A stretch of 64,000 nt of DNA, taken from an uncultured Methanosarcinales archaeon. GTDB taxonomy: Archaea; Nanobdellota; Nanobdellia; Woesearchaeales; GCA-2686295. Location: assembly GCA_964402995.1 (NCBI GenBank), contig CAYOEA010000002.1, forward strand, positions 36,558 to 100,557, in the 5' to 3' direction. Positions within the stretch are counted from its first letter, which is position 1. Every line of letters starts with the position of its first letter. Below are positions 530-11,113 of the stretch, piece by piece. Under the pieces are notes generated by a model that did no database searches, had not been told where the DNA came from, and was given only the letters and a program-made list of their open reading frames with translations. The translations under genes were made by a program, and so were the position numbers.

Positions 530-1477
530 TTAAAGTTTAATTCGCATCAAATCATAAGAACATTCTGCATTTGTAAAGAAATCTTTAATACTTGATTCTA
601 GAACTGATATATCTTTATAACGCTGAGAAAAGTGTGTTATGATTAAACGTTTGACTTCTGCATTTGTCGCAATTAAACCCGCATCAGCAGTTGTTAAATG
701 CTTATATTTTGCAGCATTCTCACTCATATCAGGAAGATAAACAGATTCAGAAATTAAAAGATCAGAGTTCTTTGCTAAATCTATTGCATTCTTATTTGGA
801 ATAGTATCAAACACAAAAGTTATTTTTCTACCTTTTTTTATAAAAGAAACATCGTCAGGCTCAATTAATTTACCATTGATAGTTACGGAGTTTCCATTTT
901 GAATTTCTCTCATAATAGGACCTTGAGTTAAACCTACTTCTTTTGCTTTTGCAAGTTTTATTTTTCTTTTATCCTTTTCTACAAATGAATAAGCCACACA
1001 AGAAGTTGTATGTTGCATGTTTGCTGCTTGAATATAATAATCATCAGTTTCTTTGATTGTTGTGAGTTCTTCTGGATCAAGTTCAGTAATTCTTAAATCT
1101 AAGTTCTCTTGCTCAAAAATTACAGAATCTAAAAGATGTTGAATGCTTTTTTTAGTTCCTATTGGACCATAAATTTCAATTTTTGGAGGAACATCTTTAT
1201 TTGATATTGTTTGTAAAAGACCAATTATACCGCCAACATGATCGCCATGCCAGTGAGTTATCAAAATAGTTGTAACTTTATTTCTATTAATGCCTGCAAG
1301 ATTCATTTGTCTTTGAGTTCCTTCGCCACAATCTATCAAAATGCCTTCTGACTGATATGACATGTAAATTGCTTGGACATTACGGTCCTTTGTCGGCACC
1401 ATACATGCCGTACCTAAAAAAGTTAGTTCCATTTTGTTTGATAAGAAGAGTTTGTTTATATTTGTTATTAAAAACAA
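530..1477 (-). CDS. rnz: ribonuclease Z (tRNA 3' endonuclease, metallo-beta-lactamase fold)
   Basis: HxHxDH motif ITHWHGDHVGG. MELTFLGT…P N-terminus is typical of RNase Z. The true start is probably the internal Met at ~1432 (MELTFLGTA). Confidence 0.8.
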   Translation of the reverse strand: MFLITNINKLFLSNKMELTFLGTACMVPTKDRNVQAIYMSYQSEGILIDCGEGTQRQMNLAGINRNKVTTILITHWHGDHVGGIIGLLQTISNKDVPPKIEIYGPIGTKKSIQHLLDSVIFEQENLDLRITELDPEELTTIKETDDYYIQAANMQHTTSCVAYSFVEKDKRKIKLAKAKEVGLTQGPIMREIQNGNSVTINGKLIEPDDVSFIKKGRKITFVFDTIPNKNAIDLAKNSDLLISESVYLPDMSENAAKYKHLTTADAGLIATNAEVKRLIITHFSQRYKDISVLESSIKDFFTNAECSYDLMRIKL

Positions 1478-1495
1478 AAACAGAACATATAAAAA

Positions 1496-1769
1496 CTTAC
1501 ATAAATAGAAAAATATATGAAAAAAGATATAAATGAACTTACATAAATAGAAACAGAAATAAATAAAGAGAACAAAAAATAAAACCTACATAAATAGAAT
1601 AAAATATGAAAAAAGAATAAATAATCCTACATAAATAGAAATTTAACCACAAACAATATAAACTCAAAAAAACAAACAATATAAACCAATAAACAGATCA
1701 AGAAAACTAATTCTTACATACATAGACAAACACAATAATATTTATAAAGGAATTCTTACATGAATAGAG
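1496..1769 (+). repeat. array of six ~15-bp direct repeats (CTTACATAAATAGAA consensus) with ~42-bp phasing in the divergent promoter region
   Basis: Copies at 1496, 1538, 1585, 1626, 1713 and 1755. Four are exact or near-exact (c[ct]tacataaatagaa), two are degenerate (cttacatacatagac, cttacatgaatagag). Spacings are 42, 47, 41, 87 (=2x43) and 42 bp. Confidence 0.6.
1741..1748 (+). promoter_or_regulatory. putative TATA box for the 1776 gene (leaderless or short-leader transcript)
   Basis: tttataaa lies ~28 bp upstream of ATG 1776, which is typical archaeal TATA-to-start spacing for leaderless mRNAs. Confidence 0.3.
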
Positions 1770-1775
1770 TATACT

Positions 1776-2330
1776 TTGAGAGCACGACGAGACGACAAAA
1801 AAGAGAAATATAGAGATTACAATAGAATAAGTGCTCAAAGACTCGAAAAAGATCAAGATAAACTCAAATTACAACTTCTAATTGAAACATTAACTTCAAA
1901 GTACAATATAGATCCTAAAGAACTACTTTTGGAAGTAGAAAAAGATAGTCTAATTCCAACCAGCATATTCTCAGAAAAATTAAGCACATTAGAAACAGTC
2001 GTCAAATATCTAAAAGAAAATAACGGATTAAAAAATAAAAAAATCGCAGAGCTTGTCGGAAGAGATTCAAAATCAGTATGGCAAGCATATAATTCTTCAA
2101 AGAAAAAACAAGCAGAAAAAATCATTGTGAGCGATATAAAGCACACATTCCCAATTTCTATTCTTAAAAACAAGCAGCTCAGCGTTCTAGAAAACGTCGT
2201 CGCGTATCTCAAAGAACAAGGACTGCAAAACAAAGAGATTTCTGAGTTAATTAAACGTGACCAGAGAACTATTTGGACTGTGCTAAACAGAGCTAAAAAT
2301 AAACGAGGAGGAAATGAAAACATTAGGTAA
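1776..2330 (+). CDS. small protein with two internally repeated HTH-like modules (putative DNA-binding regulator)
   Basis: Two ~55-aa repeats: …LETVVKYLKENNGLKNKKIAELVGRDSKSVWQAYN and …LENVVAYLKEQGLQNKEISELIKRDQRTIWTVLNR. These resemble sigma-70 region 4 / LuxR-type HTHs. Its stop overlaps the start of the giant gene (co-transcription likely). Confidence 0.5.
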   Translation: MRARRDDKKEKYRDYNRISAQRLEKDQDKLKLQLLIETLTSKYNIDPKELLLEVEKDSLIPTSIFSEKLSTLETVVKYLKENNGLKNKKIAELVGRDSKSVWQAYNSSKKKQAEKIIVSDIKHTFPISILKNKQLSVLENVVAYLKEQGLQNKEISELIKRDQRTIWTVLNRAKNKRGGNENIR

Positions 2331-5300
2331 TAAAATCGGACGCCTGGAAAAAGAATTCACACTCCTACATAGTTCTAAGAAGAATCTGTTAGCACAGAAA
2401 AGAAGAAAGGAAATCACCAAGAAAGATCATGATTTCCATAAAAAAATAAACAATAGTGAAAGTCACAAAAAAGCATACCATAAAGAAATTAGTGAGCAGA
2501 TAAACACTGCAAAAATAGAAAGAGAAAGAAGAAGAGAAAGCAATAAAGAAAGAGAAAGAAAACCTGCAATTATTTTGATGATTGGATTAATAGTAATCTT
2601 AAGCACATTAGTAATTGCAAACTTTGAAGGAATAACGGGGTTTGCAACATTTACCAGAGAACAAACATTAGTCATAGAAATGAATGAAAGTTATGGACCT
2701 GGACAATATGAGATTGAATTAGATCTAGAAAATGCAACCAGCCTGAGAGTTAGTGGAATAGGCACAGGAGAGGGAAGAATAAAAGTCTTGCTTGAAATGA
2801 ACGGAACAAATCTAACAGTATTAGATAGATATGTGAATGAAGAAGGAAGAAATAATTTAATTACAGGAATGGTTGTTGGAGATGAATTTACACTACTAGA
2901 AGATATGCTAGAAAATAATGCGAACGAAGAAGTAATAGAAGAAGAAAATATCACTGAAATAGTTGATAATATAGAAACTAATAATGAAACAATAGAAATT
3001 GTGGAAGAAAATAATACAAGCACAAATGCAACAACTAATGAAACAATTAATGAAAACATAAGTGCAAGTATAAATGAAAACATAACAAATAATACCAGCT
3101 CAAATATTACAGATATAAACATAACAATCCCTATTGAGCTAAATACTAGTGAAGAACTAAACATCACATTAAATGAAAGTATAAACTTGAGTTTAAACGA
3201 TACAATAGAAATAGATAATGAACTAAATATTACATTAAATGAAAGTAACAATGAGTCTACAAACATAAGTACAAATGTGACGAGTAACACCACAAGCAAG
3301 GTTACAACCAATGTAACGACTAATACTAGTATGAATTTGACAGTTAATGCTACGACTAATATTACAAGTAATATTACAAGCAATTTAACAAGCAATATAA
3401 GTGCAAACATAAGTGAAAATATAACTAGTAATGCAAGCTCAAATATTACAGACATAAACATAACAATCCCTATTGAGCTAAATACTAGTGAAGAACTAAA
3501 CATTACATTAAATGAAAGTATAATTGAAGAACTAAAAACGATATTTGAAGATGAATGTTTAGAAACATGTGTTGCAACAATATCCAATGCTAAACTAATA
3601 ATCATAGTTGAAGACATGGACTTTACATTAACTCAGATTGTTTATACTAAAAAAATAGATAACAAACCCCCAGTACAAACTAAAAACTTAGAAAACATAA
3701 GCTTCTACAAAGAATATGAAATAAATGCAAGCGAATATTTTGCAGACCCTGACGGAGATGAACTAATCTATGATGTAAAAAGATTAGATGATATAAGAAC
3801 AGTAATTATTGGAAATAGAATAATCTTTAGAACAAATACTACTGGAACATACGAAACTTATGTCTACGCAACAGATGGAGGAAGTTTAGTTAAGAGTAAT
3901 ACATTTACAATTAGAACTGGACTAGAAGAAAATGTGAGTTTAGTGACAGAAAAATCAATAAAAGAAAATGTAACTCAACTACAAGCAGAAATTGGTAAAC
4001 CAGTTAAATGGATTAAAACAGTACAATTAGATAATATTACAGACACAATAATTAACTTACCTGAAAGTTCAAGAAATATAATTGTAAAAGACAACAACAA
4101 CAAACAAGTAAAAGAAGAAAAAATTAGTGTTGTAGAAAATAAAACAAGAAGAACATTAATAGAATATGAAGTAGATAAAGAAATTGAATTAATCAAAAAG
4201 AAAATAGAAAAAGCAGATAAGAAAGATAATTCAAAAGAATCAGGAAAACTAAAATCAAGTCTCATCAAACTAAAAGTAAAAAAACAAGAAATAGTTAGTG
4301 GACAAAAACTAACAGATAAAGGAGAAGAAACTACAGGATCAAAAATACTAAATAGCATCAGAACAACTGTTGCAAACTCAGACTTAACTGGAAGAATAAT
4401 ACAAGAAATACCAGATGCAAAACTAGATCCAAGCATAAAACCAATTGAAGAAGCAACTATTATTCCAGAAGATAAAATAATCGTGATTGAAGATGAACTT
4501 CTTGAAGAAAACATTGTTGAAATTGTAGAAGAAATTATCGAAACAAATGAAACAATAGTAATTGAAGAAAATGTTAAAGAAATAGTAAATGAAACTGTAG
4601 AAAAAATTACTGATATAATTGAAGTAATAGAAGAAGAAAATATTACAACGATTAATTCAACAATTGATGTTGAACTAAATAGCACTTCAGAAATAAAAAT
4701 TATTGAAGAAGAAAATAATACATTTCTAACAAATATTACAGAAACAAATAACACAACAAGAAACGCAACAATCCAAATAGAAAATAATACGAAAGAAATT
4801 ATTGAAGAAATAATTAATGAAACTAATAAAACAAATGAAACTATAATAGTTGAAGAAATTATTGAAGAAGAAACGCTAATAGAAACGCCTGATATAACAC
4901 AAGAAATAATTATTAGTGAAGAAGTGATAAATGAAACTGAAGACATAATAATTGGAGAAGAAAATAATTATAATTCACCAACAAATATTGAAGAAGGAAT
5001 AGGAATTATAATTGAAGAAACAGCTGAAGAATATATCATAGAGTATGAAACGGAAGCTCCAGAAATTATAGAAGAAGAAATTAATGAATATAAGAAGAGA
5101 GTTACAATTAGTTCCACATTACACTACACAGAAATCTTATCCTACACAAACATAACACCATCACCAAAAGAAAGCATAGGATTACACTGGTTAGTAAACG
5201 GAAGCAGAATAGAAATGAAGAACATCACTTATGTGGATGCAAATGAAGATGGTCTGGTTGAAAAAATAGCATGGATCACACCACACTTATCAAACCAAAC

Positions 5301-8214
5301 ATTCGAAATTACAATCACAGTTCTGAATGTACAAAGTTACCCTCTAGTTGGAGCATATTGGACTGTTAGGTTAAATACTAGCGGACAAGCAGACTTAGAA
5401 ATTACACCATTTAACTACACCACATTCTGGCCAGAACCAAACGACTTTGGAAACTTAGAACATGACTTAGAATTTGTTAACTTTAGTTGTGGAAATACAA
5501 TGTTAAATGATCAACTATGGTTTACAACAAATGTGAGTTGTGCTGAATTAAATAATATTAGTTGTTATTATGAAAATGAGAGTAATAGAACAATTGCAAA
5601 GTATGATGAATTAATGCAAACAAATCTTTCAACTTGGATGGAATCAATAATTTTATTCAACTACACTTGTGATGAAAATGTTAGTTTATGGACTGATAGA
5701 GTAAAAACACCAGGAGCACACTATATTAACTTCACATTCGGGCCAAGCAGTGCACATGCACAAAACTGGGCTGTAAAGAGCGCCACATCTATAACCACTA
5801 ACGTCACAGTCAATATTAGAAGACCAGGCGGAACAAATGTGATTACAGGAGGTTTCATGACTCTAAGCGGCACAAGCGGGGATACAGAAGAATGGCACAA
5901 CACAACATGGACTTATGATTACTCCAAAGACTGCCAAGAAGAAGGAGACTATGAATTATATGTAGAAGTACTAAGTGAAGGAAATTCAGAAACTCAAAAA
6001 GACATAAGTGGACTTTCAGAAGCAATAACTATGTGGGTCGATCAATGTACAATTGCAGGACTTGGATATGCAGATTGTAGAGTTCATGTATCAAGTAAAA
6101 ACACGAATGCAGACAAAGACTTTGGTACAAGACTAGATTTAATGAATAGTAATTGTAATATCACAAGTGTAACGCACGAAGGATCAGAGTACCATACAAC
6201 AGAAGGACTAAATAGTTGTACTGGTGGAGAATGTGGAACTTGGATAGAAATATACCATGACGTTGGAACAAGCGACAATACAGACGATACTTACTTCGAT
6301 ATAAGATGTGATGATGGAGCTGATGATAACACTCCAATGATGATGGATTTAGCAGAAACATGCGGACCTTCAAGTTGTGGAGAAGCAACAGTAGGACTTG
6401 GAGGATATGATGATTGTTCAAATCCAACATGTACAGATGGGTACACTTACATTGGAGATGATAGTGTAGAATCACTTGGAGGATTCACACTCATAACTTA
6501 TGAAATAGGAATCTTAGATACATGGGATTGGAATACTGTAACAACATACAATATAGATTGGGACTCAAGTCAAGAAGATTGTGACTGTTACAAAGGAGTA
6601 GGATATTGGAATATTGGTGGAGATGTAGTAACTTGTTGTGAAGATGATGGAAGTGAAAATAAAACAACAAGAAATGTAGATGAAAGTACAATAGATAATG
6701 GATATACAGATAATACAAGCGATGATGGATGTTGTGATACAAATGATAAATGTGTAGATACAAGTATTTGTTATATATCAGGCGATGTTAGCACAGACAT
6801 AGATAGTGATGGAGATGAAGATTATTGTAATGCTGGAACATGGTTTGATTGTAATACAGACTCAGAATGTGCAATAGGAATATTCTGTAATGCAACTAAT
6901 GATTGTGAAGTATCATACATAAACTTAAGTTATGAATTACCAACACCAACAACAAATACAATTCAAATTAACAATCAACAAATAATTAATGTAAGTGTTA
7001 GTTCATATGGAAGCACAGTAGACTCATGTACGCTAGAATGGAATGGTATAAATGAATCAATGGGGAAAATCGGAAGCGGAACAGAAGTAAGTTGCAATAT
7101 TACAAAAACAACTATTGATGGAACAACTTATAATTACAAAGTCTTTGCAAATAATTCAGTTGGAATAATAAATAATACTGCTCTAAGAAGTTTCACAGAG
7201 AATAGTTTACCAACAATAACTTACCATAACATAACACCTGTTGCACCAGATACAACTGATGACTTAAATTGTTCATTTACACTTATAGATTCAGAAAATA
7301 ATAGTTTAATTGCATATTATCAATGGTATAATGGTACAAATCAAACATTATCAGGATCAGTTCCAGTAACAAGTGGAATCATAGGCTCAACAATCCTAAG
7401 CGCAGAAAATACAAACAAAGATGAAAACTGGACTTGTGAAATAACACCTTATGACAACTATGAAAATGGAACTGCAAGTAATATATCTAGAATCATAAAT
7501 AATAGTGTCGCATCGGTAACATTGTTAACGCCTACTGATGGACAAACATTAATAGAATATACTAATAGAACACCAAGACTTACTTGGACTGCAAGCGATC
7601 CAGACGGAGATAATATGAGTTACACTATATGGATATCTGAACAATCAGACTTTAGTACAATTAATCAAACAACAAGCGGAATTTCAGATATAAAATATAC
7701 TATGAATGATCTTAAAGTGGACACAATATATTATTGGATAGTTGAAGCATTTGATGGAGTTTCAAGAGTAAATGCCACTTCCGAGTTCAACTTCACAATA
7801 CAAAGTTACGAATCAATAACATTTGTAGTTGATACAGTAAACTTCCCTGAATTAGAAATTGGAGAAACAAACGATACAGACACAGATGCAATCACACCAT
7901 TTAAGATTAGAAATACAGGAAACGTTTTTGTGAACTTAAGCATAAATGCAAGTGAACTATGGGATGGTGCGAGTGCAGCCATACCAAGTGTATACTATAG
8001 ATTTAAGGCCGATGAAGTAAGTGGTGAAGAAGGAGCATTTACAACCGGAAGCAGCACTATGAGTTGGACTAACATGGTTTCAACAGCCACATCGTTCATT
8101 AAAGACTTGAACTTTGACTATGATACAGATGAAGCAGAAATTGATCTTTATCTGACAGTACCTCCACATGAAATTGCAGGTCAGAAAAATTCAACAATAA
8201 GTATAAGCACATAG
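2314..8214 (+). CDS. giant (1966 aa) membrane-anchored surface protein with a sequon-dense stalk, Ig/PKD-like domains and Cys/Asp-rich modules
   Basis: The N-terminus is basic, followed by a TM/signal-anchor PAIILMIGLIVILSTLVIANF. A long run of N-x-S/T sequons follows (NITSNITSNLTSNISANISENITSNASSNITDINIT…). Later segments include DPDGDELIYDV and TWTASDPDGDNMSYTIWI (PKD/FN3-like). Aa ~1230-1530 is a Cys- and Asp-rich block (CEDDGSENK…CCDTNDKC…). Confidence 0.8.
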   Translation: MKTLGNKIGRLEKEFTLLHSSKKNLLAQKRRKEITKKDHDFHKKINNSESHKKAYHKEISEQINTAKIERERRRESNKERERKPAIILMIGLIVILSTLVIANFEGITGFATFTREQTLVIEMNESYGPGQYEIELDLENATSLRVSGIGTGEGRIKVLLEMNGTNLTVLDRYVNEEGRNNLITGMVVGDEFTLLEDMLENNANEEVIEEENITEIVDNIETNNETIEIVEENNTSTNATTNETINENISASINENITNNTSSNITDINITIPIELNTSEELNITLNESINLSLNDTIEIDNELNITLNESNNESTNISTNVTSNTTSKVTTNVTTNTSMNLTVNATTNITSNITSNLTSNISANISENITSNASSNITDINITIPIELNTSEELNITLNESIIEELKTIFEDECLETCVATISNAKLIIIVEDMDFTLTQIVYTKKIDNKPPVQTKNLENISFYKEYEINASEYFADPDGDELIYDVKRLDDIRTVIIGNRIIFRTNTTGTYETYVYATDGGSLVKSNTFTIRTGLEENVSLVTEKSIKENVTQLQAEIGKPVKWIKTVQLDNITDTIINLPESSRNIIVKDNNNKQVKEEKISVVENKTRRTLIEYEVDKEIELIKKKIEKADKKDNSKESGKLKSSLIKLKVKKQEIVSGQKLTDKGEETTGSKILNSIRTTVANSDLTGRIIQEIPDAKLDPSIKPIEEATIIPEDKIIVIEDELLEENIVEIVEEIIETNETIVIEENVKEIVNETVEKITDIIEVIEEENITTINSTIDVELNSTSEIKIIEEENNTFLTNITETNNTTRNATIQIENNTKEIIEEIINETNKTNETIIVEEIIEEETLIETPDITQEIIISEEVINETEDIIIGEENNYNSPTNIEEGIGIIIEETAEEYIIEYETEAPEIIEEEINEYKKRVTISSTLHYTEILSYTNITPSPKESIGLHWLVNGSRIEMKNITYVDANEDGLVEKIAWITPHLSNQTFEITITVLNVQSYPLVGAYWTVRLNTSGQADLEITPFNYTTFWPEPNDFGNLEHDLEFVNFSCGNTMLNDQLWFTTNVSCAELNNISCYYENESNRTIAKYDELMQTNLSTWMESIILFNYTCDENVSLWTDRVKTPGAHYINFTFGPSSAHAQNWAVKSATSITTNVTVNIRRPGGTNVITGGFMTLSGTSGDTEEWHNTTWTYDYSKDCQEEGDYELYVEVLSEGNSETQKDISGLSEAITMWVDQCTIAGLGYADCRVHVSSKNTNADKDFGTRLDLMNSNCNITSVTHEGSEYHTTEGLNSCTGGECGTWIEIYHDVGTSDNTDDTYFDIRCDDGADDNTPMMMDLAETCGPSSCGEATVGLGGYDDCSNPTCTDGYTYIGDDSVESLGGFTLITYEIGILDTWDWNTVTTYNIDWDSSQEDCDCYKGVGYWNIGGDVVTCCEDDGSENKTTRNVDESTIDNGYTDNTSDDGCCDTNDKCVDTSICYISGDVSTDIDSDGDEDYCNAGTWFDCNTDSECAIGIFCNATNDCEVSYINLSYELPTPTTNTIQINNQQIINVSVSSYGSTVDSCTLEWNGINESMGKIGSGTEVSCNITKTTIDGTTYNYKVFANNSVGIINNTALRSFTENSLPTITYHNITPVAPDTTDDLNCSFTLIDSENNSLIAYYQWYNGTNQTLSGSVPVTSGIIGSTILSAENTNKDENWTCEITPYDNYENGTASNISRIINNSVASVTLLTPTDGQTLIEYTNRTPRLTWTASDPDGDNMSYTIWISEQSDFSTINQTTSGISDIKYTMNDLKVDTIYYWIVEAFDGVSRVNATSEFNFTIQSYESITFVVDTVNFPELEIGETNDTDTDAITPFKIRNTGNVFVNLSINASELWDGASAAIPSVYYRFKADEVSGEEGAFTTGSSTMSWTNMVSTATSFIKDLNFDYDTDEAEIDLYLTVPPHEIAGQKNSTISIST

Positions 8215-8292: not shown

Positions 8293-8955
8293 ATGGTAAC
8301 TAAAAAAGCAGATAAAAAAATTACTGAAATTAAAATAAAAGTTAAAAAGAGCTCTGCTGCTGTAAACAAAGTTATTGTTAAAAGAATTATTAAGATAGAA
8401 AAAGTAAAAACTAATGGTACAAAAGAAGATAAACTTCCAAGAACAGTATTCGCACAAGAAAGAGTTTTAATGGAAGATTGTGATGAAGCTAGAGAACTAT
8501 ACAATAAAGGCGTTTATGGAAAAGTACTAAGTGATAAACAACTTCAATTATCATTACAAGAGGCATTATATTTACTTGATAAAAATAAAATTGTGATTAG
8601 TGATGGAAGGAAGAAAAGTTTAACATTTGAAGAATTCTTAAAAAAAGCAACTAAAAAAGAACCAAATTTCTGGATAAGATTCTGTGTCTACAAAGATATG
8701 AGAAGTAGAGGCTACATAGTCAAAACAGCACTTAAATTTGGAGCTGACTTTAGAATCTATGATAGAGGAATTAAACCTGGTGAAGACCATGCAAGATGGA
8801 TAGTATATCCTGTACATGAAGGAAGCACACTAACATGGTATGATTTCGCTGCTAAAAATAGAGTTGCGCACTCAACAAAAAAAAGATTAATGATGGGTGT
8901 TGTAGACGACGAAGGAGATGTAACTTACTGGGAAATCAAGTGGATGAGACCATAA
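8293..8955 (+). CDS. endA: tRNA-splicing endonuclease (EndA) with a lysine-rich N-terminal extension
   Basis: The C-terminal catalytic domain pattern RGYIVKTALKFGADFRIY…GEDHARWIVYPV…KKRLMMGVVDDEGDVTYWEIKW matches the EndA Tyr/His/Lys region. The N-terminal ~50 aa are K-rich. Confidence 0.7.
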   Translation: MVTKKADKKITEIKIKVKKSSAAVNKVIVKRIIKIEKVKTNGTKEDKLPRTVFAQERVLMEDCDEARELYNKGVYGKVLSDKQLQLSLQEALYLLDKNKIVISDGRKKSLTFEEFLKKATKKEPNFWIRFCVYKDMRSRGYIVKTALKFGADFRIYDRGIKPGEDHARWIVYPVHEGSTLTWYDFAAKNRVAHSTKKRLMMGVVDDEGDVTYWEIKWMRP

Positions 8956-10078: not shown

Positions 10079-11113
10079 ATGGGAACAGCAATAACTGAAA
10101 TTCTAATAAAAAAAGAAATTAGTATAAAAGATTTACAAGGACAAATTCTAGCAGTTGATACATTTAACATGCTATACCAATTTATTTCTAGCATAAGACA
10201 ATCAGATGGAACACCATTGACAGATTCTAAAGGCAGAATAACAAGTCACTTAATTGGATTATTTAACAGAGTAACAAAATTAATGACAGAAGGAATAAAA
10301 TTCATCTTTGTATTTGATGGCGAAGTTCCAGACCTGAAGAAAGCAGAAAGAGAAAGAAGAAAATTAGCAAAACTTGAAGCTCAAGCGAAATATGACGCAG
10401 CAAAACAAGAAGAAAATATTGAAGAAATGAAAAAATATGCTTCAAGAACTTCAAAACTAACATCAAACATGGTAGATGAAGCAAAAGAATTGATTAGAGC
10501 ACTTGGAATGCCAATAGTAGATGCACCAAGTGAAGGCGAAGCACAAGCAGCATATATAGTTTCAAAAGGAGAAGCATACGCAATAGTTAGCCAAGATGCA
10601 GACTCGCTTGTTTTTGGAGCACCAATAGTTATTAAAAATTTAACAATTGGCGGAAAGAAAAAAATGCCAGGAAGTTATGTGTATAAAAATATAAGTCCTG
10701 AAACATTAAGTTTAGCTGAGAACTTGAATAATTTGAAAATAACCAATGATCAATTAATAGTGCTTGCAATGCTTGTAGGAACTGATTATAATATTGGCGG
10801 AATAAAAGGAATAGGACCAAAGAAAGCTTTAAAACTACTAGAAACATATAAAGAAGATTATGAGAAAATATTTGAGGAAGCAAAGTGGAATGATAACTTT
10901 GACTTTGAATGGAAATTAGTATATGACACCATAAAAAATGTGAAAATTACTGACGATTATGATTTAACATTTGAAAAGATTGATACAGAAAAAATAATTG
11001 AAATATTAGTAGAAAAACATGACTTTTCAAAAGAAAGAGTTGATGGAACAATTGCAAAATTAATGAAAGGAATGCAACCAAAAACTCAGAAAGGACTTGG
11101 AGATTTCTTTTAA
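10079..11113 (+). CDS. fen: flap endonuclease 1 (FEN-1)
   Basis: N-domain …ILAVDTFNMLYQF… and I-domain …FVFDGEVPDLK…GMPIVDAPSEGEAQAAY…SQDADSLVFG… are classic XPG/FEN1 motifs. An HhH follows: GTDYN…GIGPKKAL. Confidence 0.9.
   Translation: MGTAITEILIKKEISIKDLQGQILAVDTFNMLYQFISSIRQSDGTPLTDSKGRITSHLIGLFNRVTKLMTEGIKFIFVFDGEVPDLKKAERERRKLAKLEAQAKYDAAKQEENIEEMKKYASRTSKLTSNMVDEAKELIRALGMPIVDAPSEGEAQAAYIVSKGEAYAIVSQDADSLVFGAPIVIKNLTIGGKKKMPGSYVYKNISPETLSLAENLNNLKITNDQLIVLAMLVGTDYNIGGIKGIGPKKALKLLETYKEDYEKIFEEAKWNDNFDFEWKLVYDTIKNVKITDDYDLTFEKIDTEKIIEILVEKHDFSKERVDGTIAKLMKGMQPKTQKGLGDFF

What the first reader, a model, noticed from the sequence alone, without database searches (positions are those of the whole stretch)
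1496..8214. Phased 6-copy repeat array upstream of a duplicated-HTH protein that is co-transcribed with a 1966-aa surface protein
Six copies of a ~15-bp motif (consensus CTTACATAAATAGAA) occur at 1496, 1538, 1585, 1626, 1713 and 1755. Spacings are 41-47 bp, or one double spacing, which is about four helical turns, so all copies face the same side of the DNA. The array fills the divergent region between rnz and the 1776 gene and ends 7 bp before its ATG.

The 1776..2330 product is an internal duplication of an HTH-like module (…KNKKIAELVGRDSKSVWQAYN / …QNKEISELIKRDQRTIWTVLNR). Its stop overlaps the start of the giant surface-protein gene. A two-headed HTH protein next to a regularly phased site array fits an autoregulatory or cooperative binding arrangement controlling the giant surface gene. 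The motif contains TTTAT on the reverse strand, so some copies could instead be reiterated promoter elements.
Basis: partly seen in the sequence, partly recalled or inferred. Interest (0 to 1): 0.65.

Follow-up and report, generated by a model that had tools for sequence, protein, structure and literature searches.

The report
Operator array of a twin-HTH regulator
The six repeats are very probably the binding sites of the small two-headed DNA-binding protein encoded right next to them, which controls its own gene and the giant surface-protein gene behind it; the same uncharacterised gene pair and site array recurs across tiny symbiotic (DPANN) archaea.

Summary
The six-copy motif is real. There are 6 copies with at most 2 mismatches in 274 bp, against 0.89 expected in 64 kb, and none elsewhere in the window. 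It is a 17-bp site, AACTTACATAAATAGAA. Copies 5 and 6 flank a TATA box, and copy 6 fills the space between the TATA box and the TTG start of a 184-aa protein made of two sigma-region-4-like HTH modules.

Eighty-five related loci from Woesearchaeota and Nanoarchaeia show the same design. There are 2 to 9 sites, with spacings peaking at 21, 31-32, 41-42, 52-53 and 62-64 bp, and a TATA box between the last two sites. A membrane-anchored surface-protein gene overlaps or abuts the HTH gene.

Each half-site changes with the recognition helix of one module. HTH2 reads the gene-distal half and HTH1 the proximal half. One helix change arose twice, each time with the matching base change. This is strong in-silico evidence that one monomer reads one site.

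In some relatives the HTH modules are fused to the cytoplasmic C-terminus of the giant protein, with cognate sites at that gene's promoter.

Whether the protein activates or represses is unknown. I found no description of the family.

The parts
1494..1510 (+). Site 1 (17-mer AACTTACATAAATAGAA), distal, perfect consensus
1536..1552 (+). Site 2 (AACTTACATAAATAGAA), 42 bp from site 1
1583..1599 (+). Site 3 (AACCTACATAAATAGAA), 47 bp from site 2
1624..1640 (+). Site 4 (ATCCTACATAAATAGAA), 41 bp from site 3
1711..1727 (+). Site 5 (TTCTTACATACATAGAC), just upstream of the TATA box
1741..1748 (+). TATA box TTTATAAA. Its 5' end is 35 nt before the TTG start. Other genes in the window have this distance at 25-35 nt, so transcripts are leaderless or nearly so
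1753..1769 (+). Site 6 (TTCTTACATGAATAGAG), the proximal operator. It starts 4 nt after the TATA box and ends 6 nt before the start codon, so it covers roughly -19 to -3 relative to the inferred transcription start
1776..2330 (+). Gene for the 184-aa twin-HTH protein, with a TTG start. It has a long N-terminal helix (residues 9-43) followed by two sigma-region-4-like modules
2061..2090 (+). Codons of the HTH1 recognition helix RDSKSVWQAY (residues 96-105). Inferred to read the gene-proximal half-site ATAGAA
2256..2285 (+). Codons of the HTH2 recognition helix RDQRTIWTVL (residues 161-170). Inferred to read the gene-distal half-site (A/T)(A/T)CTTA
2305..2311 (+). Shine-Dalgarno-like GAGGAGG just before the ATG of the giant gene, inside the end of the HTH gene. 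Suggests translational coupling
   Evidence: read directly from the sequence
2314..8214 (+). Gene for the 1966-aa surface protein. It has a basic cytoplasmic tail (1-84), a TM helix (85-104), an ITGF motif (107-110), and an ectodomain with 111 N-x-S/T sequons, 34 Cys and an fn3/Ig-like domain near 1747-1824
2566..2625 (+). Codons of the single N-terminal transmembrane helix AIILMIGLIVILSTLVIANF
530..1432 (-). rnz (RNase Z), the divergent neighbour. It is not a conserved partner of the cassette in other genomes
1649..1686 (+). A second, unexplained repeat in the gap between sites 4 and 5. ACAAACAATATAAAC occurs twice, 23 bp apart, and a related inverted copy lies at 1451-1469

Best explanation
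The six repeats are operators for the 184-aa protein encoded immediately downstream.

How the site is read (inferred from co-variation): the protein is a single chain with two sigma-region-4-like HTH modules. One monomer reads one asymmetric 17-bp site. HTH2 (RDQRTIWTVL) reads the gene-distal half, xxCTTA. HTH1 (RDSKSVWQAY) reads the gene-proximal half, ATAGAA. The two half-site centres are about 11 bp apart, or one helical turn.

How the sites sit on the promoter: sites 5 and 6 bracket the TATA box. Site 6 fills the stretch between the TATA box and the transcription start of a nearly leaderless mRNA. That mRNA carries the regulator gene and, through a 17-nt overlap and a Shine-Dalgarno-like sequence, the 1966-aa membrane-anchored surface glycoprotein gene. 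The protein therefore autoregulates a two-gene operon.

Direction of control (inferred by analogy): in archaea, factors bound between TATA and the start site usually block RNA-polymerase recruitment. The most likely effect of the proximal site is therefore autorepression. The four upstream sites, arranged as in-phase pairs four turns apart, would add cooperative loading or a switch-like threshold; the long N-terminal helix is a candidate contact surface. Activation from the upstream sites at low occupancy cannot be excluded.

What is shown: the sites, their geometry, their conservation, the protein-DNA co-variation and the gene linkage. What is inferred: actual binding, the sign of regulation and cooperativity.
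For: 1. The motif is specific. Six copies with 2 or fewer mismatches occur against 0.89 expected, and none elsewhere in 64 kb. Motif identity is 88% against 41% for the spacers.

2. The motif is a phylogenetic footprint.
- An unbiased 7-mer count in 85 upstream regions of homologues gives CTTACAT 73 times against 3.3 expected.
- 63 of 84 regions have at least 2 mutually supporting sites.
- Sites matching a locus's own consensus occur at 13.6 per kb in its own 305-bp upstream region, against 0.08 per kb in the rest of the loci.

3. Spacings of adjacent sites peak at 21, 31-32, 41-42, 52-53, 62-64 and 84-85 bp. Rayleigh R is 0.64 at a period of 10.5 bp, n = 198.

4. The promoter geometry is conserved. 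In 25 of the 34 loci with a proximal site and a nearby TATA box, the TATA box ends 3-7 nt before that site. The site ends 0-13 nt before the start codon in 27 of the 39 loci that have a proximal site. TATA-to-start distances of other genes in the window indicate leaderless transcripts.

5. Protein and site co-vary.
- When the HTH2 helix is RDxRTIW, the 4th base of the distal half-site is T in 14 of 19 loci. When it is RDxRNIW, that base is A in 14 of 14 (p = 1.5e-5).
- When the HTH1 helix is RDxRTIW, the 4th base of the proximal half-site is T in 18 of 22 loci. When it is RDxRNIW, that base is A or G in 8 of 8 (p = 8e-5).
- Proteins with both helices of the T type have palindromic TACTTA-N5-TAAGTA sites.
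- HTH1 with K99 goes with A at site position 16 in 14 of 15 loci. R99 goes with T in 27 of 35 (p = 4e-6).
- The modules are positionally orthologous, so the T-to-N helix change arose independently in module 1 and in module 2, each time with the matching half-site change.

6. Paralogues on the same contig carry different site variants.

7. The fold fits. The AF2 model has pLDDT 91. Single modules superpose on SigR and SigF region 4 at 0.8-1.1 A. The profile hits SigH region 4 (3mzy) at E = 5.5e-4. Pfam HTH_23 scores above its cut-off.

8. The downstream membrane-protein gene overlaps or abuts the HTH gene in nearly all loci.

9. Fused relatives keep cognate sites at the promoter of the fused gene.
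Against: - No binding, expression or transcription-start data exist; everything is comparative.
- The co-variation statistics are not corrected for phylogeny. They rest on perhaps five or six independent class transitions.
- The window's sites are not all on one helical face, because of the 47-bp and 87-bp steps.
- The direction of regulation is untested. Proximal sites are not systematically weaker than distal ones (p = 0.13), so the simple model of high-affinity activating sites plus a low-affinity repressing site has no support.
- Fifteen to twenty percent of homologous loci show no clear array. Some of these reflect uncertain start-codon calls or fusion into longer ORFs.
- A TTG start on a near-leaderless mRNA is unusual.
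Confidence: 0.8

Rival explanations
1. Surface-coupled signalling module. The twin-HTH protein is held or modulated by the cytoplasmic tail of its cognate giant membrane protein. This would work like an ECF sigma/anti-sigma pair, or like a membrane-tethered factor such as ToxR. Events at the cell surface, such as host contact or shedding or cleavage of the ectodomain, would then set how much free regulator reaches the operator array. This extends the best explanation rather than excluding it.
For: - Rosetta-stone fusions exist. In L033, L034, L038 and L075 one giant ORF runs as follows: cytoplasmic N-terminal WxxYYD domain, TM, huge ectodomain, second TM, a poly-Lys/Arg stretch, then one or two twin-HTH modules at the C-terminus. 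Seven full-length giants among the 16 proteins of 600 aa or more in the best 150 family representatives show the same order.
- Cognate sites sit at the promoter of three of these fused ORFs (L033, L034, L075).
- In split systems the partner is almost always an N-in single-pass membrane protein, and many have the same conserved roughly 100-aa cytoplasmic WxxYYD domain.
- Genomes carry several cassettes with distinct site specificities.
Against: - The window's own giant protein has an 84-aa basic tail that the WxxYYD profile does not detect.
- A whole class of partners has cytoplasmic tails of only 8-12 aa, too short for a docking domain.
- No known anti-sigma or protease-site domain was found.
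- No interaction could be tested. Fusion shows functional linkage, not sequestration.
Confidence: 0.3
2. The repeats are reiterated core-promoter units, each a TATA-like stretch plus initiator, produced by tandem duplication. They would give multiple transcription starts and would not be protein-specific operators.
For: - TRF finds a 42-bp unit present 3.5 times.
- Sites 1-4 are each preceded by an A/T-rich TATA-like stretch.
- In L004 both sites are preceded by TTTATAAAA.
Against: - The spacers are no more similar than random sequence, while the motif is 88% conserved.
- The motif is absent from the other promoters in the window.
- It co-varies with the regulator's recognition helices and differs between paralogues in one genome.
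- A distinct TATA box lies at a fixed 3-7 nt from the proximal site only.
Confidence: 0.07
3. The array serves something other than transcription of the cassette. Candidates are a replication origin or iteron set, a centromere-like partition site, a degenerate CRISPR-like array, or control of the divergent rnz gene.
For: - Regularly spaced direct repeats in an AT-rich (19% GC) intergenic region resemble iterons or parC-type sites.
- Site 1 lies close to the putative rnz promoter.
Against: - Across the family the array is always attached to the HTH gene, with a TATA box between the last two sites, whatever the upstream neighbour is.
- No GC-skew turning point occurs at 1.5 kb.
- The repeats are 17 bp with spacers of 24-70 bp, and I saw no cas gene among the eight ORFs scanned against Pfam near the array.
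- No Rfam family hit was found.
Confidence: 0.03

Closest known systems
ECF sigma / anti-sigma pairs, especially the multiple SigI-RsgI pairs of Clostridium thermocellum (comparison from my own knowledge)
   Same: - The DNA-reading module has a sigma-region-4 fold.
- The regulator gene is co-transcribed with, and directly followed by, a single-pass N-in membrane protein with a large variable ectodomain.
- The regulator's own promoter carries its sites.
- There are several paralogous pairs per genome, each with its own site specificity.
   Different: - The host is an archaeon with TBP/TFB-dependent transcription.
- There is no sigma-2 domain; there are two sigma-4-like modules instead.
- The site is a 17-bp bipartite box between the TATA box and the start site, plus a phased upstream array, not -35/-10 elements.
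- No anti-sigma domain is recognisable.
- Interaction with the partner is not shown.
MarA/SoxS/Rob (AraC-family monomers with two HTH motifs; from my own knowledge)
   Same: A single chain with two HTH units reads one asymmetric box of about 17-20 bp, one unit per half-site in adjacent major grooves. The orientation of the box relative to the promoter is fixed.
   Different: - The fold is unrelated (AraC-type versus sigma-4-like).
- The bacterial proteins contact sigma-70 RNA polymerase.
- They have no multi-site phased arrays at their own promoters and no linkage to surface-protein genes.
Ss-LrpB of Sulfolobus solfataricus, an archaeal autoregulator with three regularly spaced boxes in its own control region (from my own knowledge)
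   Same: An archaeal regulator with several helically phased copies of its site in front of its own gene, which implies cooperative occupancy and concentration-dependent autoregulation.
   Different: - Lrp/AsnC is a dimeric fold that reads palindromes; here a monomer with two modules reads asymmetric sites.
- One site here lies downstream of the TATA box.
- Copy number here reaches 9.
ToxR/TcpP/CadC membrane-bound one-component regulators (from my own knowledge)
   Same: This comparison applies to the fused relatives (L033, L034, L038, L075, P0078 and others). They carry a DNA-binding domain, membrane span(s) and an extracytoplasmic domain in one polypeptide, and their sites lie at their own promoter.
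   Different: - The DNA-binding domain is C-terminal and sigma-4-like, not an N-terminal OmpR-type winged helix.
- There are two membrane spans and an ectodomain of thousands of residues.
- The window's system is split into two genes.
Multi-HTH DNA binders found by fold search: the Tc3 transposase bipartite domain (1u78) and the archaeal CRISPR-repeat-binding protein (2lvs)
   Same: Tandem HTH units in one chain bind a bipartite or repeated DNA target. In the case of 2lvs, an archaeal protein binds regularly spaced direct repeats.
   Different: The matches are weak (E 0.07-0.2, TM about 0.2-0.36). There is no transposase or CRISPR context here, and the overall arrangement of N-terminal helix plus two modules has no whole-chain match in the PDB.

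Membership tests
Sigma-70 region 4 / LuxR-type HTH fold | Compact helical HTH module detectable by profile or structure | tested here: met
   - The profile of alignment A1 hits SigH region 4 (3mzy) at E = 5.5e-4.
- Foldseek aligns single modules to SigR region 4 (5fgm, 0.8 A over 45 residues) and SigF region 4 (8jzt, 1.1 A).
- Pfam HTH_23 scores 25.9 bits against a cut-off of 24.6. Sigma70_r4_2 scores 23.5 against 25.7, just below its cut-off.
Bacterial-type sigma factor (ECF) | A sigma-2 domain that binds the -10 element and RNA-polymerase core | tested here: not met
   No sigma-2 hit was found in Pfam or NCBIfam. The AF2 model shows one long N-terminal helix plus two sigma-4-like modules only. 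The organism is an archaeon, with a histone, tRNA-splicing endonuclease and FEN1 nearby.
ECF sigma / anti-sigma system | Partner protein with a recognisable cytoplasmic anti-sigma domain | tested here: not met
   Neither the window's tail (residues 1-84) nor the WxxYYD tails of relatives hit any Pfam family above noise.
ECF sigma / anti-sigma system | Regulator gene co-transcribed with a single-pass membrane partner, and autoregulated | tested here: met
   The genes overlap by 17 nt in the window. The partner overlaps or abuts the HTH gene in nearly all of 85 loci and has an N-terminal TM helix in most. Sites lie at the regulator's own promoter. Autoregulation itself is inferred.
Autoregulated archaeal transcription factor with operator array | Specific sites in its own promoter that track the regulator's DNA-reading residues | tested here: met
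   Searches cover enrichment, specificity for the regulator's own promoter, half-site/helix co-variation and two independent T-to-N events.
Autoregulated archaeal transcription factor with operator array | Demonstrated DNA binding and an effect on transcription | not testable with these tools
   This needs EMSA or footprinting and in vitro transcription. The organism is uncultivated.
Membrane-tethered transcription factor (ToxR-like) | DNA-binding domain and membrane span in one polypeptide | tested here: not met
   The window protein is a soluble 184-aa chain with no TM helix. The feature is met only in relatives: L033, L034, L038, L075 and P0072-P0191.
CRISPR array | Repeats of 23-47 nt, unique spacers of similar length, and cas genes nearby | tested here: not met
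   The repeat is 15-17 nt and the spacers are 24-70 nt of AT-rich sequence. I saw no cas gene among the eight ORFs between 291 and 12105 that were scanned against Pfam. Rfam gave no hit.
Replication origin / iterons | Linkage to an initiator gene (orc1/cdc6 or rep) and a strand-skew switch | tested here: inconclusive
   No skew turning point occurs at 1.5 kb. The flanking genes are rnz and the HTH gene. The whole window was not scanned for orc1/cdc6. Across the family the array travels with the HTH promoter, not with any initiator.

The most novel reading that the evidence does not exclude
The cassette is an archaeal transmembrane feedback or signalling device that is widespread in DPANN. A twin sigma-4-like regulator would be physically coupled to the cytoplasmic end of its own giant surface protein. 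In some lineages the two are fused; elsewhere they are split but co-translated. Events at the cell surface, such as host attachment, or shedding or cleavage of the ectodomain, would release or activate the regulator. The regulator would then act cooperatively on a helically phased operator array to switch its own operon. Several cassettes per genome carry orthogonal recognition codes. That would allow independent or mutually exclusive expression of alternative host-interaction proteins, an archaeal counterpart of SigI/RsgI or of phase-variable adhesin control.
Probability: 0.3. Interest if true: 0.85.

Novelty: new variant of a known kind. Interest (0 to 1): 0.7.

Why it matters
DPANN archaea are tiny, mostly uncultivated symbionts. 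Their giant surface proteins are thought to mediate host contact, but how those genes are controlled is essentially unknown.

This locus exposes a lineage-wide regulator family that I could not find described. It has 2,271 clusters at 50% identity, no dedicated Pfam family, and is annotated as 'hypothetical protein'. The family is dedicated to such surface-protein genes.

Three features make it unusually tractable:
- The DNA recognition code can be read from sequence alone: one residue change goes with one base change.
- The operator arrays are helically phased.
- Natural fusions tie the regulator to the membrane protein.

Together these give directly testable predictions: helix swaps, site swaps, and binding between regulator and tail. 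They also give a way to predict which surface protein each regulator controls in metagenomic genomes. If the membrane coupling is real, it would be a new archaeal route from cell surface to promoter.

Tried and rejected
- Iterative PWM refinement kept growing (171 to 392 sites) and drifted towards generic AT-rich sequence. I used it only for a rough density estimate.
- A de novo search for the best 17-mer family in each locus was too noisy in 20-30% GC DNA. I replaced it with half-site-anchored extraction that requires a second similar site.
- The search for related loci with the 65-sequence alignment failed for lack of a conserved stretch. It worked with a 12-sequence alignment.
- I tested whether the proximal site is a weaker match than distal sites, which would suggest an affinity hierarchy. 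The result was not significant (p = 0.13).
- I tested whether the window's giant-protein tail belongs to the conserved WxxYYD cytoplasmic domain. It was not detected.
- Pfam scans of both tail types gave noise only.
- AF2 of the shared ectodomain block (residues 895-1175) with a 9-sequence alignment gave pLDDT 54. Only a beta-rich stretch of about 90 residues was confident, so I did not run a fold search on it.
- An Rfam scan of 1300-2500 gave no hit.
- Four literature searches found no description of this family or arrangement.
- I rejected a chance AT-rich word, a CRISPR array, an origin or iterons, and reverse-strand TATA repeats, for the reasons given under the rival explanations.

Full report
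**Context.** The window is about 30% GC. It carries an archaeal histone (291-497), RNase Z (minus strand), tRNA-splicing endonuclease (8293-8955) and FEN1 (10079-11113). Homologues of the protein of interest come from Candidatus Woesearchaeota, Pacearchaeota and Nanoarchaeia metagenome genomes. The organism is therefore a DPANN archaeon. Promoters should be of the TATA/BRE type, and the bacterial promoter scan was not relevant.

**The observation.** The 15-mer CTTACATAAATAGAA occurs six times on the + strand at 1496, 1538, 1585, 1626, 1713 and 1755, with 0, 0, 1, 1, 2 and 2 mismatches.
- At 2 or fewer mismatches there is nothing else in 64 kb. The expectation from shuffles is 0.89, and 0 of 100 shuffles reach six.
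- Tandem Repeats Finder sees a 42-bp unit present 3.5 times.
- The motif copies are 88% identical pairwise. The spacers are 41% identical, exactly the background for this 19%-GC region. The motif is therefore maintained by selection rather than left over from recent duplication.
- Spacings are 42, 47, 41, 87 and 42 bp. The pairs (1,2), (3,4) and (5,6) are each four helical turns apart, but the pairs are out of register with one another.
- rnz almost certainly starts at ATG 1432 (MELTFLGT...; the RNase Z profile begins at residue 16-17 of the longer ORF).
- The downstream ORF starts with TTG at 1776. An in-frame TGA lies at 1761, and the protein has no Met. Homologues align from residue 2-4, which supports this start.

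**The protein.** The 184-aa product gives only weak Pfam hits to both halves: HTH_23 just above its cut-off, and Sigma70_r4_2 and HTH_24. The family profile matches region 4 of SigH (3mzy) at E = 5.5e-4.

AlphaFold2 with the 65-sequence alignment gives a confident model (pLDDT 91). It has a long helix (residues 9-43), a short helix, and then two equivalent three-helix modules, each preceded by a short strand. Foldseek finds no whole-chain match in the PDB (best E 0.03). Single modules superpose on SigR and SigF region 4 at 0.8-1.1 A. Weak matches include the bipartite Tc3 DNA-binding domain and an archaeal CRISPR-repeat-binding multi-HTH protein.

The family is large. It has 2,271 clusters at 50% identity with E of 1e-3 or better, and 1,495 at 1e-30 or better. 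Source names are 'hypothetical protein' or generic.

**Gene linkage.** In the window the stop of the HTH gene (2328-2330) overlaps the ATG (2314) of the 1966-aa ORF, and GAGGAGG lies at 2305-2311. In 85 related loci an ORF of about 200 to more than 3000 aa overlaps or abuts the HTH gene in nearly every case. The upstream neighbour varies (rnz here; other genes elsewhere), so the cassette is the unit.

The partners are almost all N-in single-pass membrane proteins. They have a cytoplasmic tail of 8-115 aa, one TM helix, a conserved juxtamembrane (I/L/V)TG(F/L/Y/M) motif, and a large ectodomain. The motif occurs in 42 of 81 partners, against 6 of 50 control stretches.

The window's protein has a basic 84-aa tail, a TM helix at 85-104 and ITGF at 107-110. 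It also has 111 N-glycosylation sequons, 34 Cys and an fn3/Ig-like hit near 1747-1824. It shares ectodomain blocks (about 400-625 and 800-1160) with many other partners.

**The motif is a family-wide cis element.**
- The three closest loci I read by eye (L001, L003, L004) have two or three copies of CTTAnnTAAATAGA in the same place.
- An unbiased 7-mer count over 85 upstream regions gives CTTACAT 73 times against 3.3 expected.
- Using half-site-anchored extraction that requires a second similar site, 63 of 84 regions have 2-9 sites.
- Sites matching a locus's own consensus are about 165 times denser in its own 305-bp upstream region than in the remaining 474 kb of the loci. Many of the 'outside' hits are simply array members a little further upstream.
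- The window contains one family member and one array.

**Geometry.** Spacings between adjacent sites across the family fall in sharp peaks at 21, 31-32, 41-42, 52-53, 62-64 and 84-85 bp. Rayleigh R is 0.64 at a period of 10.5 bp, n = 198. Helical phasing is therefore a family property, even though the window obeys it only within pairs.

In 39 loci the last site ends within 30 nt of the start codon. Of these, 34 have a TATA box within 40 nt upstream, and in 25 it ends 3-7 nt before the site. The TATA box lies between the last two sites in 23 loci.

In the window the TATA box is at 1741-1748, site 6 at 1753-1769 and the TTG at 1776. Other genes in the window have their TATA 5' end 25-35 nt before the start codon, so leaderless transcripts are the norm. 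The inferred transcription start is therefore about 1770-1772, and site 6 covers roughly -19 to -3.

**Co-variation of protein and site.** I aligned the recognition helices (window residues 96-105 and 161-170) for all loci and compared them with each locus's site consensus. The site is 17 bp long: a gene-distal half (TACxTA), five bases (usually CATAA), and a gene-proximal half (TAyGTA).

| Module | Helix type | Half-site read |
|---|---|---|
| HTH2 | RDxRTIW | Distal half TACTTA (14 of 19 loci) |
| HTH2 | RDxRNIW | Distal half TACATA (14 of 14; p = 1.5e-5) |
| HTH1 | RDxRTIW | Proximal half TAAGTA (18 of 22) |
| HTH1 | RDxRNIW | Proximal half AA(C/T)GTA (8 of 8; p = 8e-5) |
| HTH1 | RDSKSVWQAY (window group) | Proximal half ATAGA(A/C/T) |
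| HTH1 | RSxKTIW | Proximal half TAGGAT or TAAGAA |
| HTH1 | RNEIALAV | No G-containing half-site |

- Proteins with two T-type helices have palindromic TACTTA-N5-TAAGTA sites.
- K against R at HTH1 position 99 goes with A against T at site position 16 (14 of 15 against 27 of 35; p = 4e-6).
- Module 1 is more similar to module 1 of other classes than to any module 2, and the same holds for module 2. The T-to-N helix change therefore arose independently in the two modules, each time with the matching half-site change.
- The all-T palindromic class fixes the assignment: HTH2 reads the distal half and HTH1 the proximal half.
- Paralogous cassettes on one contig (L021, L040, L041, L042, L070) carry different site types that match their own helices.

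These counts are not phylogenetically corrected. The mirrored, repeated pattern is nevertheless hard to explain unless one monomer reads one site with one module per half.

**Fusions.** In L033, L034, L038 and L075 the twin-HTH module (one or two copies) is the cytoplasmic C-terminus of a giant ORF of about 1,800-2,600 codons. The order is:
1. an N-terminal cytoplasmic domain with a conserved W-x-x-Y-Y-D motif;
2. TM1;
3. the ectodomain;
4. a conserved membrane-proximal block and TM2;
5. a Lys/Arg run;
6. the HTH modules.

Sixteen of the best 150 family representatives are 600 aa or longer and carry the modules at the extreme C-terminus. Seven of them, all full-length, also start with the WxxYYD domain followed by a TM helix. 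The longest protein is 5,919 aa.

The same WxxYYD domain forms the cytoplasmic tail of many split partners (E 1e-23 to 1e-45). Cognate T/N-type sites, with a TATA box between the last two and the proximal site abutting the ATG, lie upstream of the fused ORFs. This confirms that the target is the promoter of the surface-protein gene. It also shows that regulator and surface protein are functionally tied.

It does not prove sequestration. The window's tail is not detectably a WxxYYD domain, and one class of partners has tails of only 8-12 aa.

**Mechanism.**
- Shown: the sites, their specificity, phasing and promoter position, the co-variation, the operon linkage and the fusions.
- Inferred: the protein binds each 17-mer as a monomer. 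Occupancy of site 6 between the TATA box and the start site hinders RNA-polymerase recruitment, which is the usual outcome for archaeal factors bound there (my knowledge of archaeal repressors). The upstream in-phase pairs load cooperatively, perhaps through the N-terminal helix.
- Activation from upstream sites is equally conceivable. A test for weaker proximal sites was not significant.
- I put binding and autoregulation at about 0.8, net repression at the proximal site at about 0.6 given binding, and coupling to the membrane partner at about 0.3.

**Comparison with known systems.** It works most like an autoregulated archaeal factor with phased operators (Ss-LrpB-like), read by a MarA-like two-HTH monomer. 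Its gene organisation recalls ECF sigma/anti-sigma pairs, SigI/RsgI in particular. Its fused relatives recall ToxR-type membrane-bound regulators.

It is not a member of any of these. There is no sigma-2 domain and no recognisable anti-sigma domain, the fold differs from AraC, Lrp and OmpR types, and transcription is archaeal. CRISPR, origin/iteron and ncRNA readings were checked and do not fit. Four literature searches found no description of the family.

**Verdict.** It generalises into an undescribed, DPANN-wide regulator and surface-protein cassette with a sequence-readable recognition code. I class it as a new variant of a known kind (an autoregulated transcription factor with an operator array), with interest 0.7.

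Noticed in passing
window 1649-1663 and 1672-1686 (+); related inverted copy 1451-1469: A second repeat, ACAAACAATATAAAC, occurs twice 23 bp apart in the 87-bp gap between sites 4 and 5. A related sequence in inverted orientation overlaps the likely TATA region of the divergent rnz promoter (minus strand AACAAATATAAACAAA, 21-30 nt before ATG 1432). These could be extra TATA-like promoter elements or sites for another factor.
   Followed up: partly
window 1776-2330: The regulator has a TTG start and not a single Met in 184 residues, on what looks like a nearly leaderless mRNA. My start calls for the family include many TTG and GTG codons as well. That is unusual for leaderless translation.
   Followed up: partly
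window 2632-2643 (giant protein residues 107-110) and partners in L001-L085: A conserved (I/L/V)TG(F/L/Y/M) motif lies a few residues after the N-terminal TM helix of the downstream surface proteins. It occurs in 42 of 81 partners against 6 of 50 control stretches. It may be a processing or anchoring signal. I know of no description.
   Followed up: partly
L033 1055-7666, L034 842-7474, L038 to 7762, L075 2348-7774; P0078 (5919 aa), P0088, P0094 and others: These giant two-span membrane proteins have a cytoplasmic N-terminal WxxYYD coiled-coil domain and one or two twin-HTH modules at the cytoplasmic C-terminus. A conserved 'GQEELYFC...YST..G.WTIRI' block precedes the second TM helix.
   Followed up: yes
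L041 about 10130/10151, 10878/10899, 11705/11726; also L021, L040, L042: Pairs of EIA-class sites (TACTTATATAATATATA), 21 bp apart, occur 1.4-3 kb upstream of the EIA-class regulator gene, in stretches without long ORFs. Some T/N-class promoters (L025, L041, L048) also carry EIA-type sites. This hints at small regulons and cross-regulation between cassettes. A T/N-class cassette is followed 5-7 kb downstream by an EIA-class cassette in five contigs.
   Followed up: partly
L003 8052-8876 (minus strand): A tyrosine recombinase (Phage_integrase) gene lies divergently, 124 bp upstream of the closest-class cassette in one genome. Toxin-antitoxin genes lie a few kb downstream. The cassette may sit in a variable or mobile region there.
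   Followed up: no
L001 1870-2100 and L002 1705-1935: A 76-aa ORF two genes upstream of the cassette matches only the second HTH module (residues 105-155 of P0024). Single-module relatives therefore exist.
   Followed up: no
P0002 and P0068-P0102 (about 310-370 aa): Many family members are tandem duplications of the whole twin-HTH unit, giving four HTH modules in one chain. They might read two adjacent phased sites at once.
   Followed up: no
window 1853-2323 (-), 2691-3617 (-), 3975-4946 (-): Long antisense ORFs (156, 308 and 323 aa) lie opposite the HTH and giant genes. They are most likely artefacts of the purine-rich, AT-rich coding strand (AT skew 0.34).
   Followed up: no
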